DNA of 64,000 nucleotides, taken from the IMG/VR virus record IMGVR_UViG_3300028797_000100, positions 99,721 through 163,720 of that record. One strand, written 5' to 3'. The DNA comes from a virus (lineage: Duplodnaviria > Caudoviricetes). This document shows, piece by piece, positions 49,847-60,048 of the stretch. Made by a program: the position numbers and the translations under genes. Numbering within the stretch: the first letter of the stretch is position 1; each line of letters starts with the position of its first letter. Below the pieces are notes generated by a model. The model was not told where the DNA came from. It worked only from the letters and a program-made list of their open reading frames with translations, and ran no database searches.

Positions 49847-51083
49847 GTGAAGACTTTAAAAAATTATATATACAAAGATATCATATCAATTCTCTGTAGT
49901 GCTAAAAGGGATTTAAACAACGCAACTGCAGTGGCATTATTTGATAAAGCGATATCAGTATATCCATCGAAATCCATATATTGTTTAGCGGCACATCGAC
50001 TCATATCATATATAGAACAGAATATACGAAACGTCGATCTCATATTAGATGCAATGAGGGATGAAGGAGAAGACAAAGACATCATCGATACAATAGAATC
50101 ATTGAAGGCTTCTCCGACAATATCTACTCAGGCAGAATGCACTCGTTTATGTAATAAACTTGCAGACTATATCAAGTACGCATTAATCCTCAAAGCAAAA
50201 GAACCATTCTTAAAATGTCTGGATATCATAGAAGATGACGATGAGAATCTTCATGCAAGCATGGAGAAGTTATATGAGTTGGCTCAAGAAATAGCTAAAG
50301 CATATCAACAAGTAAACATACAATCAGTGATCCATTCATTTGACTCATCTGATATTGAAGCAATGAAGATGGCAATTGCAGATGCTAAGGATGCCAGATC
50401 TCCCGACAAGTGCATCATCACAGGAGTCAGAGGTTTGAATAACTTGTTATCACCTGGATATCTGTCTGGGTGTTTATACATATACTGTGCTCTACCAGGA
50501 AACTACAAGTCTGGTATATTATTGAAATCACACGTAGACACATTGAAGTATAATGAACACATTAAAAACACTACCAATGGAAAGACACCAATATCCATGT
50601 ATATCTCTATGGAGAATACTATGGCTCAGACTATACGTAGATTATGGAGTGTTCTGTTCCCAACAGCAGATATGAACTCTTATTCAGTTGAAGAGATCTC
50701 TGATATGATCAAGTCTGAGTTGGAAGTAAAGGGTATGCGTAGTGTTATTCTGTATTATGGTTATAGAGAGAAATCTACTAAGGATCTTGAGACTATAATC
50801 AGGTCATATAATACAGATGAATATGAGGTCGTTGCGTGTTATCTTGATTACATCAAACGAATCAGATCTGCTAGAACTGATGCGGCAGTATTATCTTCAG
50901 AAAAGTCTGAACTTCATGCAATCATGAATGAGTTAAAGAATATTGCAGCTGAGTTAAATATACCAATCGTATCAGGACATCAGCTCAATAGAGATGCAGC
51001 ACGTCAAGTTGATGAAATCGTTAAGAGTGGAGGATTCAATAAGACTGATCAGGCAATGGGTCGTAGTAACGTAGGAACTGCGT
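49847..51083 (+). CDS. DnaB-like replicative helicase, exon 1
   Basis: Walker A ALPGNYKS, ISMEN, LDYI, SGHQLNR. The reading frame stops at the intron 5' splice site. Confidence 0.85.
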
Positions 51084-52029
51084 AAACATCTTGCGCCATA
51101 TAGAAGTGATTCTATATGCAAACCTATTTAATTGCGGGGACTTCGTAAAGTAACGTCGGGAGACGTAGCAGAATATCCGCAGCCAAGTCGTATTTTGTAT
51201 TATCATATAAAGGAGATGATTATATAGAGGAAGAAATATGGAAACCCGTTGAATATGGAACCGTAAGACCTGAGACGTATGAAGTATCAAACTTTGGACG
51301 AATCAGAAATGCTTATACTCACAAATTATTGACCCCATGTGTATCAGAAAAAGGATATTTGATGGTATGTCTTAGATGTGTTGATAGAAATCATAAAACG
51401 ATAAAACTTCATAGGATTGTTGCAACACATTTTGTACCCGGATACACGAAAGAAAAATGTGAGGTTGACCATCTGGACGGTAATAAACTAAATTGTCGTG
51501 CTGATAATTTAGAATGGGTTACACATCTAGAAAATATAAGAAGAGCGTATAAGAATAATTTGGTTCCTATAATGAAAGGTGAACTTAATGGACGAAGCTT
51601 GTTAAAGGATTCTGAAGTTCATGAGATATGTGAGTTGTTGGCAAAACATAACGGGAATTGTCGACTTGTATGGAAGATTGTCAGATTTAAAATAACCTGT
51701 AATATAGGTATGATTCGTGATATAAAGTATAAGAAAACGCATGTTGAAATTTCTGACAAATACTTCTCTAAAGATTCATTTACAAAATACGAAAGGTTCA
51801 ACGACTATCGAAACTAACTCAATCAAATTGATTGGAATAATGGTGAATAACCTAAAGGAGTAGAGTAGCGCCAAGTGGTTCTGGTATGAAGTAATAATTC
51901 AGTAATTCCAGATTAAAGCGAAATGGTAGGGGTCTCGTCAGAGATCGTGATATAGTCTCACCTTCCACTATAACGGTGGAGAAGTTCATAAGAGAACTGT
52001 ACGAATTAACGACTCGTATGAAGACAGTG
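51084..52029 (+). mobile_element. Group I self-splicing intron in the helicase gene
   Basis: The exon ends in U51083, paired to G in P1 (gcgUaa/uuGcgc). P attgcggggac at 51131, Q atccgcagccaag at 51175, R ggttcaacgacta at 51795, S gatatagtc at 51949, P7 gacta/tagtc, terminal G52029. Splicing gives GTA-W-EIHEVADW in frame. Confidence 0.9.
51224..51817 (+). CDS. Intron-encoded NUMOD4-HNH homing endonuclease
   Basis: The frame extends upstream of the track ORF to EIWKPV...YEVSNFGRIR (NUMOD4). Contains LHRIVA..F and EVDHLDGNKLNCRADNLEW..ENIR (HNH). Probable ATA start 8 nt after AAGGAG. Confidence 0.85.
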   Translation: MEEEIWKPVEYGTVRPETYEVSNFGRIRNAYTHKLLTPCVSEKGYLMVCLRCVDRNHKTIKLHRIVATHFVPGYTKEKCEVDHLDGNKLNCRADNLEWVTHLENIRRAYKNNLVPIMKGELNGRSLLKDSEVHEICELLAKHNGNCRLVWKIVRFKITCNIGMIRDIKYKKTHVEISDKYFSKDSFTKYERFNDYRN

Positions 52030-53822: not shown

Positions 53823-54683
53823 ATGAATGAAGATGTGAGCATTATTGATCGTAAAAGACAATTTCGTTCTCGTCTCAATTCTCTTCCAATAGAGCTCAAA
53901 TGTGAGATTGGTGAGATCCCTCTTCAGAAGGGTCTTAGAGCAACCTCCAGAAAAGAGAAAGTGATTGAGCTTCTAAATAAATATCATATAGATTATATAG
54001 AAATAGGTACTGGTACAAATAGATTCATTATCAAGTATGATGGATATGCTGTAAAGATCGCTCTTGATAGAGAAGGCGTTGCAGATAATATTCAGGAATT
54101 CTCGATATGTGAATCTCTGATGCCAAATGTTGCTTACGCGTACGAGATTAGTAGTGGTGGCCACCTATTGGTGGCCGCTTACTGTCCCGCTTTTACGTCG
54201 CAATCAGAAATGTGGTCTCACAATGCCAAAATCAGAGAGATCCTTGGTGAATGGAGTAAAAGATATTTGTTAGGTGATGTTGGTATGACTGATAGAACCT
54301 TTGCAAATTGGGGACTCGCTCCCGGTGGTAGACCTGTGTGTATTGATTATGCATATATCTTCCCGTCAACAATGGATCAGTTTGAATGTATTTGTGGCAA
54401 TAGACAAATGACATTTGCCAGATCAGATTTCTCAACATATAAGTGTACGGTATGTGGAAAGGAATATGAAGATAGAGAATTGAGAGCTAGAATCTCGAGC
54501 GAAGAAAGAATAAGACTATTCGAAGGTACTAAGGGTATCACGATGACTCAAGAATATGAGATGCATGATGTTGACCTTAAGTATATTAAAATGGATGACA
54601 ATCCTGATATGCCAGATCCATATGATGTAGCCAACACAACAGTTGACCACATTTATGGTAGACCTACATCGGGATGGTTATAA
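53823..54683 (+). CDS. Protein kinase-like protein with C-terminal Zn ribbon
   Basis: IGTGTNR (P-loop), AVKIA, NIQE, GDVG...NWG, CIDYA, CICG...CTVCG. Start ATG 53823 follows aaggag. Confidence 0.75.
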   Translation: MNEDVSIIDRKRQFRSRLNSLPIELKCEIGEIPLQKGLRATSRKEKVIELLNKYHIDYIEIGTGTNRFIIKYDGYAVKIALDREGVADNIQEFSICESLMPNVAYAYEISSGGHLLVAAYCPAFTSQSEMWSHNAKIREILGEWSKRYLLGDVGMTDRTFANWGLAPGGRPVCIDYAYIFPSTMDQFECICGNRQMTFARSDFSTYKCTVCGKEYEDRELRARISSEERIRLFEGTKGITMTQEYEMHDVDLKYIKMDDNPDMPDPYDVANTTVDHIYGRPTSGWL

Positions 54684-54696
54684 AGGAGGAAAGAAA

Positions 54697-55440
54697 ATGA
54701 AATACTGGGACTTATTATTCACAGTGGGTGCTAAGACGTCTGCACCCACTATTGATGAAAAAGTCGCATCCGTAATCAAAGATGCTGCCAGAGAAGCAAT
54801 CCAGGAAATCATTCCAGCACCACAACCAGTAATGGTTGATGAGAATGCTTTAGGTAAGTTAATCGATGATGCTGTTGCAAAGCATGTTCCCGCACAGGTA
54901 GAGGCCAAGCCTGATGTAGAGTTAAATGACAAAGTCAACATGATGATGCAGCTGATGAAGGAACTTGCTGAAAAGGATAACTCTGCTCCAGCCAATTTTG
55001 ATTCATACGCTCTGAATGATGGTGAAATCTCACAGGTACTCACTTGGTTACTTAACTTCCAGGAGAAGTACTTCCCGAATACACCATTATCAGATACACT
55101 CCATCAGGACTTCATGTGGAATATTCCTAAAGAAGTCTATAATGCAGCATATGATGCGGAAGTACTCGGATATCCGGATGCTTTGAATCCGATCTATTGG
55201 TTCTACATGTTCTGTCTGGACTGTCCTCATGATATGATTGGTGAATTTATAATGAATGCTATCAATGGAATATCAGATGAAGACAGTGAAGTCATCGCTT
55301 CTCATGCAAAAGAATACCGTCGTGTATACTTTGATGAGGAAGAAGCTGTGATATCACCCGTTCAACCAGGTGAATCATCAATCGAAGACTTCGACGCAGA
55401 TATATCTGTAGAGACTATCGGAGCTAGTGAAGAAGAATAA
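54697..55440 (+). CDS. Acidic hypothetical protein
   Basis: ATG 54697 follows RBS aaggagg; terminator at 55447-55476. Confidence 0.75.
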   Translation: MKYWDLLFTVGAKTSAPTIDEKVASVIKDAAREAIQEIIPAPQPVMVDENALGKLIDDAVAKHVPAQVEAKPDVELNDKVNMMMQLMKELAEKDNSAPANFDSYALNDGEISQVLTWLLNFQEKYFPNTPLSDTLHQDFMWNIPKEVYNAAYDAEVLGYPDALNPIYWFYMFCLDCPHDMIGEFIMNAINGISDEDSEVIASHAKEYRRVYFDEEEAVISPVQPGESSIEDFDADISVETIGASEEE

Positions 55441-55487
55441 GATTATGTGGGGCATTAGCCCCACTTCTTATTTTTTCTATTTTTCAA

Positions 55488-55499
55488 AAATATATTATT
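55488..55499 (+). promoter_or_regulatory. Phage promoter motif upstream of the pentamer array
   Basis: AAATATATTATT, directly after a terminator. Confidence 0.55.
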
Positions 55500-55612
55500 T
55501 ATATGCTAATCAAAATAAAATGAATTTTATTCATTAAAAATGAAAGGAGAAGTGTTCTCGTGGAACAATAAACCACGTGTTGTCTCCGGTGACTAACATC
55601 ACCGACGTGAGA

Positions 55613-56768
55613 CGTAAAGTATAAATTTAGCTCGACATAACATGTACTGCTTCGTTCTGGTAACGTGGACCGAGGTTTTGTATTGTTCTGTGCTGTTAAG
55701 TGGGGGTCCTGTAGGGCGGTGTCTGGCAATGTAGGGTATAGGTGTGTGTTGTCCGGGTATAGTTGCGGCAATTGCAGTCAGGCTATGGTGATGGCTTTGT
55801 GTCGTGAAGTGTAGATCAGTACAGCTACGCACAGGTTTAGTTCAGTGAGGTTCTGTTTGATCCGGTGCTGGTTAGGTCTGGGACGGTCCGGTTCGGTATG
55901 GCAGGGTATGGTTCAGTCTTGGTATGGCCTGGTAGAGAATGGTACAGTTCTGTCTCGGTATGGTCAGATTAGGTGTCATAAGGTCCTGTTGCGGTAAAGT
56001 TGAGTTGTGCCTTATGAGATACAGTGACGGTACAGCTCGGTTATGTCAGATGGTGTGTGGTTCAGGTAAGGCAAGGCTCGGCTTCGTTGTGGTTCTGTCA
56101 AGTAACACATAGCAATGTTAAGGTGGTTACGGTTTAGCGGGGAGTCGTCAAATGTTGTTTTGGTGTGGTCATGTTTGGTATTATCTCGTAAGGTGCTGGT
56201 GCAGGTTCGTAGTGTGCGGCTTCATCGTGTGTTGGTGTGGTAAGGTTAAGCATGGCTTTGTGATGATCTGTTCGTGCTGTCATGGTATGGTTAAGTTGAC
56301 CAAGGTAATGTTAGGCTCTGTTATGCTCCGGTTGAGTAGGGTAATGATGGCTCGGTACTGGTATGGTCTTGTGCCATATCGCGAGATTAGGTTACGGTGG
56401 AGCTCGGTTAGGCAGGCTGCCGATCGGTAACGCGTGGTTCGGGTTCGGCCAGGTAAAGTTAGTCATGGCTAAGTGATGGTACAGTAGAGCTTAGTGCGGT
56501 GTCGTGTAGTCCCGGTACGGTAGTGGCGTGTTCTGTTGCATGTGGTCGTGTTATGCGTTGGTATGGTAATGTCGGGTTGGGCGCGGCGCGGAGTGTTACG
56601 TGGTGTTACGCGATGGCTTGGTACGGCATTGGAAGGTACAGATTAGCTCTGTGAAGTTATGGTAGGGTTATGTTGTTGATGGTAGCGTTCGATGGCGTTC
56701 TGGTAAAGTGCCGTTCGACTGCGTGCAGTTGAGTTACGTAATGGCAAAGCAGAGTTTTGGTTCTGTGC
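55613..56768 (+). repeat. GGY/NRY-NN pentamer array, probable non-coding (guide-like) RNA
   Basis: G/T-rich and A-poor, with 5-nt periodicity (e.g. ggtaa ggcaa ggctc ggctt). Consecutive 36-nt units start at 55920, 55956, 55992 and 56028. Flanked by hairpins. No credible CDS. Confidence 0.85.
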
Positions 56769-56880
56769 GGGTTTGGTCAACCCGTTGTCAATTATTTAAG
56801 GGGGTGGTGCTTCAAAATAGAATTATCTCAGGTGACAGTTGATTAGCGACGAGAAAATCTATTAAAGGAGTAAAAAGAAA

Positions 56881-57441
56881 ATGGTCAACATCAAAGATTT
56901 AGGAAAAGCCGAGGTGTTAAAGACACTTTGGGAACATTCTCATACACAGGGAATGTCATTCTTGGGGTTACTCGGTCTCGAGAATGGAGTATTTACTATC
57001 GAACATGCAAGAGAATTGGTTGATTCAAACCCACGTCTCTATTTTGATTATGTCGACGGACATGTGATCAAATGTGATCTTAGTGGAGATGAGTTTGATG
57101 AGCGGTTGTATGACCGTGATTGTGGCAAGGGTATGGCTCAGAAAGCCATTGATCATTTAAGAAAGGAGGTAGCTGTAATGGAATCTAAGTATGAAGGCAG
57201 CGTCGTTGAACTTAAGATATCTAGAGCTAAGGACAATGACAAAGTTGCTGAAGCATTCCATAATGCATTTGTCGGCAAAGACTATTACCGCGACAGTAGT
57301 GTCATAATAAATAAAGATCCTGACATTACTACAGGTAATGAGCAATCCAGAATATGTATCTGTGTTGATGAAATAGACGACATCGGCGAGATCATAGACC
57401 TGATTGCTAATACTCTGAAGTCTCTCAAAGACTTAATATGA
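56881..57441 (+). CDS. Hypothetical protein (N-terminal domain with YFDYxxG..K.D and YDRD.G.G motifs)
   Basis: RBS aaaggag. An internal RBS aaggagg before ATG 57178 suggests a two-domain fusion or an internal start. Confidence 0.7.
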   Translation: MVNIKDLGKAEVLKTLWEHSHTQGMSFLGLLGLENGVFTIEHARELVDSNPRLYFDYVDGHVIKCDLSGDEFDERLYDRDCGKGMAQKAIDHLRKEVAVMESKYEGSVVELKISRAKDNDKVAEAFHNAFVGKDYYRDSSVIINKDPDITTGNEQSRICICVDEIDDIGEIIDLIANTLKSLKDLI

Positions 57442-57466
57442 AATACATTATGGAGGTATATGACTT

Positions 57467-57988
57467 ATGAATGAACAGGCACCAGTTTACTTCTACAGCA
57501 AAGATCTTCTTACTCAGATAGCTGATCAGAATATCGATCTTGCTGGTAAGGTATACGGCGTAGTTGCTGAAGTAACAGAATCACTTCAGCATATCTTTGG
57601 AATCGAGCAGGTTCCACTCAATCCAGTGGATATGTTCTTCGAAGCTGTCACCAAGGGTGAAGACGGAGACGTAGTTCTCAGAGTGGATTGGAGAATTTCA
57701 CAGGGTACGGTTACTCTTGTAGCTATTAATCCAGTTGACGGTGCATTACTCGGATCTGCAACGCTCAGACTGGCTTCAAATAGATTTGCAGAGAGCTTTA
57801 ATCGTATTAAGGATACTGACCTCAAGGCAAAGCTTTCACAGTGGTTTGATGGCCTCTCACGTATAGACATCACTACTGTAGCTGAAGTAGGTCACTTCTA
57901 TGAGAAGCATGATGAAGCTCCTGCTGTACCAGCACCGGCACCCTCGGAAGTGCCTCATGTTGACGCAGAATTAGTTTCAGAAGGTTAA
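57467..57988 (+). CDS. Hypothetical protein
   Basis: RBS ggagg; hairpin at 58001-58024. Confidence 0.75.
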   Translation: MNEQAPVYFYSKDLLTQIADQNIDLAGKVYGVVAEVTESLQHIFGIEQVPLNPVDMFFEAVTKGEDGDVVLRVDWRISQGTVTLVAINPVDGALLGSATLRLASNRFAESFNRIKDTDLKAKLSQWFDGLSRIDITTVAEVGHFYEKHDEAPAVPAPAPSEVPHVDAELVSEG

Positions 57989-58057
57989 TCGATAATTATT
58001 ATCACCCCGGGAAACCGGGGTGATTTGATTATATTTATTTTATGGAGGTAAAAGAAT

Positions 58058-58891
58058 ATGTGCGACGAGTACAATCAGAGACCAATTGGTGCATCAGACG
58101 TAGAACAGGTGTGGTTTGAACACCAGAGAAAAGCAAGAGAATCAGCAAGTAATGATATCTACACTAATGGTGGATTACTTGACTCATCTAACAGCATGGG
58201 CTTCCAGGTTTTCCCACCTTATGGAGCTCCAGTAATATCCAGAGACATCCTTGAGAATGAATTCTCATATAGTGAGTTGAAATTCATCAGTAACGCTAGA
58301 CTCCTTGCAATGACAGCTCCTGATGTTGACAAACTCATCTTGTTACTCAAGAGATTCAAGCACTTCCTTGAGGTTAAGGGACTTACTGTGGGACAGGGTA
58401 CATATGGTACTCCCAATTACTTCATTCCACAGTATAACACAAATGTTCAGCCACTCTATGGTTGTCCTATTCCTCAGGATCAGAGAATTCTCAATGCTAA
58501 GTGGGAGAATGATCTGTGGACTAGAAAGTGGGGTAACTTGGGTGAAGAGACAGGATTCGACTTCCCCAAGGATAAGGAAGATGATGACAAGAAGGAAGAA
58601 GAGAAGATGCCTTCATTCCTTGGAAGCGCATGGAATGATCCAGCACCTGTTAGAACAAAGCCAGAGAAACCCTTCAGTCCAGGAACTCTGTTTCCGGAAA
58701 AGATTGGGGAGAAAAAGGACCAGCATAAAAAGACGGTTGTTCTTTCTGCAGAAGGCATATCATCAAATGATGACAGCAGCCTCTCTAAGGTTGTAATTGA
58801 TGGACCTTCAACAGGTATCGCAATCAATGAAAACCCTGTTCCATTAACAGATGAAAAAGACAGTGTTGACAAAGACAATGAAGAAGACTAA
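58058..58891 (+). CDS. Hypothetical protein with disordered C-terminus
   Basis: RBS ggagg. Confidence 0.75.
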   Translation: MCDEYNQRPIGASDVEQVWFEHQRKARESASNDIYTNGGLLDSSNSMGFQVFPPYGAPVISRDILENEFSYSELKFISNARLLAMTAPDVDKLILLLKRFKHFLEVKGLTVGQGTYGTPNYFIPQYNTNVQPLYGCPIPQDQRILNAKWENDLWTRKWGNLGEETGFDFPKDKEDDDKKEEEKMPSFLGSAWNDPAPVRTKPEKPFSPGTLFPEKIGEKKDQHKKTVVLSAEGISSNDDSSLSKVVIDGPSTGIAINENPVPLTDEKDSVDKDNEED

Positions 58892-59151: not shown

Positions 59152-60048
59152 ATGGCTATACTCACTTCAGATAATCTCCTTGAAATATGGGAACCTGTAA
59201 TCCCAGGGGTTGAAGGAACAATCGTTATCGTCGGTGTGAATGCAGATGATAAGACCATCCTTGCACAACAGCTGCTCAATAAAGAACTTTGTACCGATGT
59301 AATTCATTATAATATGAATACATTCGACCAGGTGTTTAAACCACGTGGAGATAAGTGGTCATTCAAAGATACCGAGGTACCAGAAGAATCCAAAGGATTG
59401 GGTGTCTTTAAATTAAATAATAAGGGTGATGTTGTTTCCACCAAAATACTCGGTGAGTTTACTGGATGTGAAAACTATCTTAAGATGGATGGTGACAAAG
59501 CTCAGTTTGATTCTGGCGCTATTCGTTACACTAAAACAGGTAAAGGTAGATATGACCTCGTCCCTGGTGACGAAATCTCCGACATAATTGGTTATGCGAA
59601 CGATCTCTGGGTTGGGAAGAATGTAATTGCTATATCAAAGGCGAACATAATCGAAGATGCATATCGTGGTACCCCTTATGATAGATTCGCAAATACAGTT
59701 ATAAATCTTATCATATATCACTATGCACCATATGACATCGTTCAAAATGACATAGGTATGACTGCACATGAGGTAACACCTGTATCATTTGATGCTGGTG
59801 TAGCACCAATGCTGAGAGATTTGGCTATACACTACGAGAATGGTGCCGAGAAGTACGGCGTTGATAACTGGAAGAAAGGCATTCCAGTTACAGGTGGTGA
59901 TAGAGGTGGTTCATTTATGGATTCAGCTATGCGTCATCTTACACAGTATCTTATCGGTCTTACAGATGAACCCCATCAGATATCATGTATCTGGAATTGT
60001 GTATGTGGTCTATGGACACTCCATCAGGAAGAGTTAAAGAAAGATTAA
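59152..60048 (+). CDS. DUF5664-type dATP/dGTP diphosphohydrolase domain protein
   Basis: FDSGAIR...KGRYDLVP ... HYENGAEKYGVDNWKKGIP...DSAMRHL...H...WN. Confidence 0.75.
   Translation: MAILTSDNLLEIWEPVIPGVEGTIVIVGVNADDKTILAQQLLNKELCTDVIHYNMNTFDQVFKPRGDKWSFKDTEVPEESKGLGVFKLNNKGDVVSTKILGEFTGCENYLKMDGDKAQFDSGAIRYTKTGKGRYDLVPGDEISDIIGYANDLWVGKNVIAISKANIIEDAYRGTPYDRFANTVINLIIYHYAPYDIVQNDIGMTAHEVTPVSFDAGVAPMLRDLAIHYENGAEKYGVDNWKKGIPVTGGDRGGSFMDSAMRHLTQYLIGLTDEPHQISCIWNCVCGLWTLHQEELKKD

What the first reader, a model, noticed from the sequence alone, without database searches (positions are those of the whole stretch)
55613..56768. 1.15 kb GGY/NRY-NN pentamer array: candidate RNA-guided system with a non-contiguous code
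Seen: a G/T-rich, A-poor block in an otherwise AT-rich and densely coding genome. It parses into roughly 220 pentamers, each a semi-conserved triplet (GGT/GGC, relaxed to NRY) plus a freely varying dinucleotide, e.g. ggtct gggac ggtcc ggttc ggtat ggcag ggtat ggttc. Units are not copies of each other, so the variable positions could carry information. The block has its own promoter motif (55488), 5' hairpins and a 3' hairpin (56768-56784). Inference: it is transcribed, a protein filament binds the constant triplets, and the NN pairs read a gapped target, as Cas7 does with its 6-nt period. From memory, and not verifiable here, this matches recently reported phage 'VIPR'-type GGY/NN RNAs that partner a Cas7/RAMP-like protein. 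I see no such protein in this window, so this would be an orphan or trans-acting array with a relaxed first base.
Basis: partly seen in the sequence, partly recalled or inferred. Interest (0 to 1): 0.92.

Follow-up and report, generated by a model that had tools for sequence, protein, structure and literature searches.

The report
Distal VIPR guide-RNA array in phage
The 1.15-kb five-base-periodic block is a real array of about 27 short guide RNAs of VIPR, a CRISPR-related phage system first described in 2026. Its Cas7-like partner protein lies 87 kb away in the same phage genome, so this is a good new example of a known system, not a new one.

Summary
Window 55,659-56,767 is non-coding and G/T-rich, and it is built of about 217 five-base units (x-G-Y-N-N). 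A one-base slip cuts them into about 27 segments of 5n+1 nt, most often 36 nt.

It is the third of three such arrays in this 164-kb phage record. All three lie on one strand and share a conserved, structured 68-nt leader. The array beside genome 66,943-67,839 follows a 298-aa protein that folds as a Cas7/Csm3 RAMP. That protein's G-loop aligns with the G-loop of the SUSP1 Vipr protein. All 80 IMG/VR loci encoding its relatives carry the same kind of array next to the gene.

Related metagenomic phages keep an array at the position syntenic with this one. Between orthologous guides, changes fall on the scaffold bases (27/219) and spare the NN pair (3/138). That is the pattern expected if NN carries the code.

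The array acts in trans but is not orphan. No target was found for the five guides I could scan, and transcription is untested.

This scan has already reported the other two arrays of this genome, and VIPR arrays in other genomes. This is a new member of a known kind.

The parts
55447..55464 (+). Intrinsic terminator of the upstream gene (54,643-55,440). It insulates the array from read-through.
   Evidence: Terminator scan. The hairpin is kept, with compensatory changes, in relatives L217 and L219.
55480..55511 (+). Promoter-like AT-rich block. Its core 16-mer starts at 55,491.
   Evidence: It is nearly invariant in the two syntenic relatives although the flanks diverge. Similar motifs lie upstream of vipr (L001:2866-2885), upstream of the array-1 operon, and at several other sites in the genome. 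There is no sigma-70 consensus match. Promoter function is inferred.
55554..55621 (+). Conserved structured leader with two hairpins. H1 pairs 55,557-55,563 with 55,573-55,579. H2 has an outer stem (55,582-55,586 with 55,609-55,613) around a variable inner hairpin.
   Evidence: All three arrays of the genome and six metagenomic relatives share it. The inner stem has four different sequences that all keep pairing. The predicted fold is the same in all three own copies, with z from -1.9 to -2.6. Rfam gives no match.
55622..55658 (+). Degenerate transition between the leader and the first clean guide.
   Evidence: Parse: weak pentamer conformity and no GGT-initiated segment.
55659..56767 (+). Array body of about 27 abutting guide segments. 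Each starts with GGT or GGC, continues with x-G-Y-N-N units and ends with one extra base. Lengths are 5n+1, with 36 nt the most common.
   Evidence: The same 5n+1 segmentation is seen in the arrays of 80 IMG/VR relatives. Six guides have orthologues in relatives with NN conserved.
56768..56784 (+). 3' hairpin that closes the array: a 6-bp stem and a 5-nt loop, with no T-run.
   Evidence: Sequence and fold. A hairpin with the same loop but a different, still complementary stem ends the syntenic array in L219. The same short G-rich motif follows it there.

Best explanation
The block is a vrRNA (VIPR guide-RNA) array of the 'staggered' kind. It is one of three dispersed arrays that serve the single Vipr (Cas7-like RAMP) protein of this large phage. 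Inferred mechanism: it is transcribed rightwards from its own conserved promoter-like block, starting with a structured leader. The transcript is divided at the one-base slips into about 27 guides of 26-51 nt, each beginning with GGU. Vipr protomers coat each guide, one per 5-nt unit, and hold the G-Y scaffold. The NN pairs are left exposed to read double-stranded DNA with a gap between pairs. The bound complex silences genes of competing mobile elements, or, with the neighbouring HNH-like accessory protein, perhaps cuts them. Shown here: the array anatomy; the RAMP fold and G-loop of the partner; the strict gene-array linkage across the family; synteny of this array in relatives; and selective conservation of NN. 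Inferred only: transcription, processing, binding, the one-base skip and the targets.
For: (1) Period 5 and the 5n+1 segmentation are significant. (2) Two more arrays of the same build and strand lie at genome ~17.2-18.0 kb and ~68.4-69.45 kb. All three share the leader. (3) P0001, beside array 2, is a RAMP. The AF2 model has pLDDT 80. The top Foldseek PDB hits are Csm3/Cas7-type CRISPR effector chains, best E 2e-6. VIA-align gives Z 11.3 to Csm3 9g9a_D, and all 24 chains with Z>=8 are chains of CRISPR effector complexes. (4) A profile of P0001 relatives aligns with SUSP1 Vipr ALH47069.1 over the G-loop (GTGQWR against GVGDWR), E 7.7e-5. (5) 80 of 80 IMG/VR loci encoding relatives have a G-skewed period-5 array abutting the gene, and those arrays show the same 5n+1 segment lengths. 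(6) L217 and L219 carry an array with the same leader at the position syntenic with this one. In L220 the vipr-adjacent array holds orthologues of three guides of this array. (7) In guide pairs chosen by overall identity, mismatches are 3/138 at NN and 27/219 elsewhere, p 5e-4. For this array alone they are 1/76 and 14/119, p 0.006. (8) There is no Cas1, no CRISPR-like repeat array and only one RAMP gene in the record.
Against: No transcript data exist. Exact skip-one scans found nothing. The scans covered four guides in IMG/VR, one of them also in JGI metagenomes. A relaxed 8-unit scan gave only chance-level hits in unrelated proteins. One guide allowed two mismatches in 401 genomes of the order of a Ruminococcus MAG also found nothing. 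So the skip-one rule is not verified for this clade. The sequence match to a characterised Vipr covers only 48 C-terminal columns, at 62% probability. The array is 87 kb from vipr, and the record is only about 61% complete.
Confidence: 0.85

Rival explanations
1. It is a vrRNA array, but not for attack on rivals. It could be a decoy or counter-measure array, as in satellite or vipr-null 'solo' vrRNAs that redirect or target other phages' VIPR systems. Alternatively it could be a self-regulatory array that silences the phage's own genes on a schedule.
For: Solo vrRNAs with such roles are reported in bioRxiv 10.64898/2026.10.15.759431. The array has its own promoter-like block and lies far from vipr. 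Under the skip-one rule two guides match the phage's own genome perfectly at 14/14 positions. One of them is the guide at window 55,921-55,956, which hits genome 50,986-51,005. About 0.03 such matches are expected from unit-order shuffles.
Against: The genome does encode Vipr, so the array is not solo. Hits with up to one mismatch are not enriched over shuffles, 9 against 5-16. The self-matching guide is not conserved in relatives. Its skipped base falls on codon position 1, not the wobble position. The other perfect hit comes from a low-complexity guide. No guide hit the vipr loci of 113 relatives above shuffled controls.
Confidence: 0.08
2. It is a long structured or protein-sponging non-coding RNA unrelated to Vipr, for example a G-rich scaffold or two-tetrad quadruplex former. 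On this view the similarity to vrRNA arrays is only compositional.
For: GG recurs every 5 nt on one strand. No target was found. No expression or binding data exist.
Against: The leader is the same as in the vipr-adjacent array. Guides are shared with a vipr-adjacent array in a relative. The family-wide 5n+1 punctuation occurs only beside vipr homologues. The non-G positions (NN) are conserved while the scaffold drifts, the opposite of what a quadruplex or sponge would select for.
Confidence: 0.04
3. It is a DNA-level element, such as a replication origin, a packaging or nucleoid-protein binding tract, or curved DNA. The mean period of about 5.14 bp is roughly half a helical turn.
For: The mean period, 36/7 = 5.14 bp, is close to half of 10.3-10.5 bp. 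The region has strong GC skew.
Against: The period is a strict 5 with discrete +1 slips, not a smooth 5.14. The strand asymmetry always follows the vipr strand in 80 of 80 relatives, and in array 2 it does so inside a minus-strand gene block. The leader and 3' hairpins show compensatory changes typical of RNA. Position-specific selection on NN has no DNA-structural rationale.
Confidence: 0.03

Closest known systems
VIPR systems with 'staggered' vrRNA arrays and relaxed (YNNNG-type) repeats (bioRxiv 10.64898/2026.04.26.720920, text on types I-VII, legends of figs S17-S18)
   Same: A lone RAMP gene sits with a small accessory gene. Long tracts of 5-nt units abut without an inter-guide tail, and each guide ends where the next begins. 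The origin is viral and there are no cas genes. The repeat keeps G-Y and relaxes the first G.
   Different: I could read only the legend, not the figure, so the exact match of the 5n+1 rule is inferred. Here the repertoire is split over three loci up to 87 kb from vipr. Each locus is headed by the same structured leader. The words 'leader' and 'distal' do not occur in that preprint.
Type II VIPR of Escherichia phage SUSP1 (Vipr ALH47069.1, Vap1 ALH47068.1; KT454805.2 27.6-29.2 kb)
   Same: The protein has a RAMP fold, and the G-loop W-R motif aligns. The repeat is a pentamer with a variable NN pair. Arrays lie on the vipr strand.
   Different: SUSP1 has four vrRNAs of about 100 nt, each with 9-16 strict GGY-NN units and a conserved pseudoknot tail. 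Here there are about 73 tail-less guides of 5-10 units. The protein is 298 aa against 195 aa. The G-loop Asp that reads the first G in SUSP1 (D177) aligns with an invariant Gln here. That fits the relaxed first base, but this link is inference. P0002 shows no similarity to Vap1.
Solo / orphan vrRNAs of F5 satellites and vipr-null SUSP1-like phages (bioRxiv 10.64898/2026.10.15.759431)
   Same: A vrRNA locus with no adjacent vipr gene that must act through a Vipr protein encoded elsewhere.
   Different: Those elements lack vipr altogether and carry 1-2 vrRNAs. This genome has its own vipr, and this locus holds about 27 guides. It shares its leader and some guides with vipr-adjacent arrays.
Class 1 CRISPR crRNA-Cas7 backbone (type III Csm3 / type I Cas7)
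   Same: A RAMP protomer binds a fixed step of guide RNA and flips bases out at regular intervals. The fold of P0001 is closest to Csm3.
   Different: The step is 5 nt, not 6 nt. There are no identical repeats separated by spacers. No Cas1 and no CRISPR-like repeat array were found; other cas families were not screened apart from a profile search for further RAMP genes. The guide information is interleaved with the scaffold instead of contiguous.

Membership tests
VIPR (Viral Interference Programmable Repeat) | A Vipr protein: a minimal RAMP with an RRM core, glycine-rich loop and thumb | tested here: met
   P0001 lies at genome 66,943-67,839. The AF2 model has pLDDT 80. Foldseek's top hits are Csm3/Cas7-type CRISPR chains. 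VIA-align gives Z 11.3. The G-loop GTGQWRGSGEYG is invariant at G245, Q246 and R248. The gene is outside the window.
VIPR (Viral Interference Programmable Repeat) | Sequence homology to an experimentally characterised Vipr (SUSP1) | tested here: met
   hhalign of alignment A1 against ALH47069.1 gives E 7.7e-5 and probability 62%. The match covers 48 C-terminal columns including the G-loop. It is local only and the rest of the protein is too diverged.
VIPR (Viral Interference Programmable Repeat) | Guide RNA gene built of tandem 5-nt units, each a conserved GGY-like scaffold plus a variable NN pair | tested here: met
   There are 217 units, 83% NGY and 41% GGY. Lag-5 z is 9.2.
VIPR (Viral Interference Programmable Repeat) | The NN positions carry the specificity | tested here: met
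   In orthologous guides of related phages, mismatches are 3/138 at NN and 27/219 elsewhere, p 5e-4. This is evolutionary evidence, not functional evidence.
VIPR (Viral Interference Programmable Repeat) | Array physically linked to vipr in a minimal locus without cas genes | tested here: inconclusive
   This array is 87 kb from vipr, so linkage is not met for it. It is tied to the vipr-adjacent array by an identical leader and by shared guides in L220. In the family, linkage holds in 80 of 80 loci. There is no Cas1 and no CRISPR-like array.
VIPR (Viral Interference Programmable Repeat) | Targets in competing mobile elements, read with a one-base skip | tested here: inconclusive
   Five guides were scanned and none gave a significant hit. 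Self-hits are ambiguous. NN composition fits codon positions 1+2 best, by about 85 log-likelihood units, but composition-preserving shuffles fit equally well.
VIPR (Viral Interference Programmable Repeat) | vrRNAs are expressed, processed and co-purify with Vipr | not testable with these tools
   No RNA-seq or biochemistry is available and the host is unknown.
VIPR type II (SUSP1-like) | Each vrRNA ends in a conserved structured 3' tail (pseudoknot) | tested here: not met
   Segments abut with one extra base and no tail. Only the whole array has a 5' leader and a 3' hairpin. It is therefore not type II.
CRISPR-Cas | Identical direct repeats separated by unique spacers, plus the cas1/cas2 adaptation genes | tested here: not met
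   No exact 20-mer recurs three or more times at 45-90 nt spacing. PF01867 (Cas1) is absent, and the control genomes were positive.

The most novel reading that the evidence does not exclude
The three dispersed arrays form one exchangeable guide pool. The conserved two-hairpin leader heading each array would work like a CRISPR leader, as a loading, processing or even guide-acquisition signal. On this reading VIPR arrays in this clade gain, lose and move guides between loci by an active mechanism rather than by ordinary recombination. The evidence does not exclude this. Only 6 of about 27 guides are shared with the closest syntenic relative although its flanking protein is 82% identical. In another relative, guides of this array sit in the vipr-adjacent array.
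Probability: 0.08. Interest if true: 0.85.

Novelty: new member of a known kind. Interest (0 to 1): 0.4.

Why it matters
VIPR is known only from 2026 preprints, and most of the detail comes from one E. coli phage with four guides. This uncultured phage record (164 kb, about 61% complete) carries about 73 guides in three loci. It offers a natural test set for several open questions. How are tail-less 'staggered' arrays cut into guides? Can one Vipr serve distant arrays? What does the shared leader do? The drift pattern between related phages gives sequence-only support that the NN pair, and not the relaxed first base, is the code in this clade. It does not change the picture of what VIPR is.

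Tried and rejected
(1) A translated gene is rejected: there is no ORF over 92 aa and the period is 5, not 3.

(2) A known RNA family is rejected: Rfam at E<=1 over 54,000-58,500 gave only a chance lncRNA hit.

(3) Close phage relatives: blastn and megablast against 50,697 phage records found none.

(4) Leader pattern in IMG/VR: the strict pattern gave 0 hits. A 15-base core gave 97 hits, none followed by an array, so these are chance. This also sets IMG/VR at about 1e11 searchable positions.

(5) Target scans:
- Exact skip-one patterns for the guides at 55,870 (IMG/VR and JGI metagenomes), 55,705, 56,396 and 56,514 (IMG/VR) gave 0 hits.
- The middle 8 units of the 55,870 guide gave 27 hits against about 24 expected, in unrelated proteins.
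- The 55,705 guide with up to 2 mismatches gave 0 hits in 401 genomes of the order of a Ruminococcus MAG.

(6) Choosing between skip rules 0-3, using 751 guides of relatives against 2 Mb of their own loci: no rule was enriched over shuffles.

(7) Self-targeting: two perfect hits were found, but near-perfect hits are not enriched, so this is left open.

(8) The accessory protein P0002: Pfam gives only a weak HNH_3 match (E 0.11). The profile match to the HNH_3 region of P0003 has E 0.0017. The AF2 model has pLDDT 61 and no fold match. It shows no similarity to SUSP1 Vap1. Its function is unresolved.

I therefore could not inspect the large ENA/Logan contigs that hold the closest Vipr homologues.

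(10) The supplements of the VIPR preprint are not held, so I could not assign a VIPR type number.

Full report
**Observation.** The stretch 55,613-56,768 has no ORF above 92 aa on either strand. It is G/T-rich (G 35%, T 32.5%, A 18%, C 15%) inside a 38% GC window. Same-base identity at lag 5 is 0.414, against 0.281+-0.015 in Markov shuffles (z 9.2). Lag 36 gives 0.414 (z 9.5), while lag 35 is at background. The autocorrelation peak walks from 5k to 5k+1 as k rises, which is the signature of pentamers with one extra base about every seventh unit. A dynamic-programming parse gives a unit consensus of x-G-Y-N-N: G 40% at position 1, G 85% at position 2, and T 70% / C 20% at position 3. The array body has 217 units, of which 89 are GGY, 180 NGY and 195 NRY. 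The six-base units fall 26, 31, 36, 41, 46 or 51 nt apart, and the unit after each one starts with GGT or GGC. The body therefore reads as about 27 abutting segments of 5n+1 nt.

**Context in the genome.** The window is the last 64 kb of a single 163,720-bp virus record that CheckV rates as about 61% complete. A whole-record scan finds exactly three such arrays, all G-rich on the plus strand. They lie at about 17.2-18.0 kb, 68.4-69.45 kb and 155.33-156.5 kb, and the last is this finding.

- *Shared leader.* All three arrays begin with the same leader of about 68 nt. Hairpin H1 is invariant. H2 has an invariant outer stem, and its inner stem differs in each copy while keeping its pairing.
- *Arrays 1 and 2.* Here the leader starts right after the stop codon of the upstream gene.
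- *Array 3.* Here the leader follows a terminator (55,447-55,464) and an AT-rich block (55,480-55,511).

**The partner protein.** Array 2 is preceded by a 298-aa ORF (P0001) and a 157-aa ORF (P0002).

- *Fold.* Pfam and PDB sequence searches find nothing for P0001. Its AF2 model (pLDDT 80) matches CRISPR RAMPs. Foldseek's top hits are Csm3/Cas7-type chains (best E 2e-6). VIA-align gives Z 11.3 to Csm3, and all 24 chains at Z>=8 belong to CRISPR effector complexes.
- *Copy number.* A profile of its 26 metagenomic homologues finds only this one copy among 693 ORFs of the record.
- *Link to a characterised Vipr.* I located the published SUSP1 VIPR locus in KT454805.2 through its GGY-NN arrays. 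The P0001 family profile aligns with SUSP1 Vipr over the C-terminal G-loop at E 7.7e-5. The W-R pair that holds the second G and the pyrimidine in the cryo-EM structure is conserved.
- *Relaxed first base.* The Asp that reads the first G in SUSP1 aligns with an invariant Gln here. This fits the relaxed first base, but the link is inference.
- *No CRISPR features.* The record has no Cas1 and no CRISPR-like repeat array.

**Family-wide linkage.** Over 560 IMG/VR contigs encode relatives of P0001. In all 80 that I fetched, a period-5, G-skewed array abuts the gene on its strand. Their six-base units are again spaced 21, 26, 31, 36, 41 or 46 nt apart. A further 33 relatives sit in MAGs, many of them gut or rumen Clostridia and Eggerthellaceae, plus lineages from other habitats. 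This matches the preprint's 'staggered' arrays and its relaxed YNNNG-type repeats.

**Comparative evidence for this array.** A leader pattern with 24 fixed bases found six metagenomic loci.

- L217 and L219 carry the leader and an array at the position syntenic with this one. Their flanks match genome 153,954-155,244 and 156,739-163,718.
- L215, L216 and L218 are syntenic with array 1.
- L220 is the vipr-adjacent array of a relative.

The promoter-like block and the upstream terminator are conserved in L217 and L219. Similar motifs precede vipr and the array-1 operon. The 3' hairpin (56,768-56,784) recurs in L219 with a different but still complementary stem.

Six guides of this array have orthologues in L217, L219 or L220. 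Three of them sit in L220's vipr-adjacent array, so the loci draw on one guide pool. I then chose pairs only by overall identity (>=78%) to avoid circularity. Mismatches are 10/70, 2/70, 13/70, 1/70 and 2/68 at positions 1-5, and 2/9 at the extra base. That is 3/138 at NN against 27/219 elsewhere (p 5e-4). For this array alone it is 1/76 against 14/119 (p 0.006). The ten-unit guide at 55,870 keeps all 20 NN bases while five scaffold bases changed. NN is therefore the selected information, and position 1 belongs to the scaffold.

**Targets.** I found none.

- Exact skip-one scans of four long guides gave no hit.
- A relaxed scan gave chance-level hits in unrelated proteins.
- A two-mismatch search of one guide in 401 genomes of the order of a Ruminococcus MAG gave none.
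- Two guides match the phage's own genome perfectly under skip-one, against about 0.03 expected. Near-perfect hits are not enriched, one of the two guides is low-complexity, and the other is not conserved. I leave this open.
- NN composition fits codon positions 1+2 best, but only at the level of base composition.

**Verdict.** It is a new member of a known kind. The conserved leader and the multi-locus layout are modest additions that the preprint text does not mention.

Earlier notes of this scan pointed me to the vipr gene and to the hexamer punctuation, and I re-tested both here.

Noticed in passing
window 55,921-55,956 (guide) against genome 50,986-51,005, outside the window: Under the skip-one rule this guide matches the phage's own 310-aa ORF (genome 50,578-51,510, minus strand) at 14/14 informative bases, and a second own site at 13/14. 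An array-1 guide matches the start of a 99-aa ORF at genome 44,084. Two perfect self-hits were seen against about 0.03 expected, but the skipped base is not the wobble position and near-hits are not enriched.
   Followed up: partly
window 55,491-55,506; genome 15,047; L001:2866-2885; window 13,778, 27,317 (minus strand): An AT-rich 16-mer motif recurs upstream of the arrays, upstream of vipr and at several other places in the genome. It is probably a phage-specific promoter class, so the arrays and vipr may be expressed together.
   Followed up: partly
L220:1901-2031 and its array (Ga0247610_10000325): In a related phage the vipr-adjacent array mixes orthologues of guides that this genome splits between array 2 and array 3. 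Only about 6 of 27 guides are shared with the closest syntenic relative. Guide content therefore turns over and moves between loci quickly.
   Followed up: partly
L002:2480-3643 (P0003) and L001:3893-4366 (P0002), outside the window: The gene before array 1 has an HNH_3 domain (E 1e-5). The small gene after vipr has a weaker copy of the same C-terminal motif. An HNH-like accessory protein could mean target cutting rather than silencing only.
   Followed up: partly
window 59,152-60,048: This ORF has a dATP/dGTP diphosphohydrolase N-terminal domain (PF18909, E 5e-12), a family seen in phages that replace a canonical base. It may hint at modified DNA.
   Followed up: no
window 55,546-55,596: A Shine-Dalgarno-like AAAGGAG followed by a GTG opens a 14-codon mini-ORF across the leader of array 3 only. 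It is not kept in the leaders of arrays 1 and 2, so it is probably fortuitous.
   Followed up: no
window 49,847-51,085: A divergent DnaB-like helicase (PF20307, E 4e-30) lies upstream. Most neighbouring ORFs have no Pfam or PHROG match.
   Followed up: no
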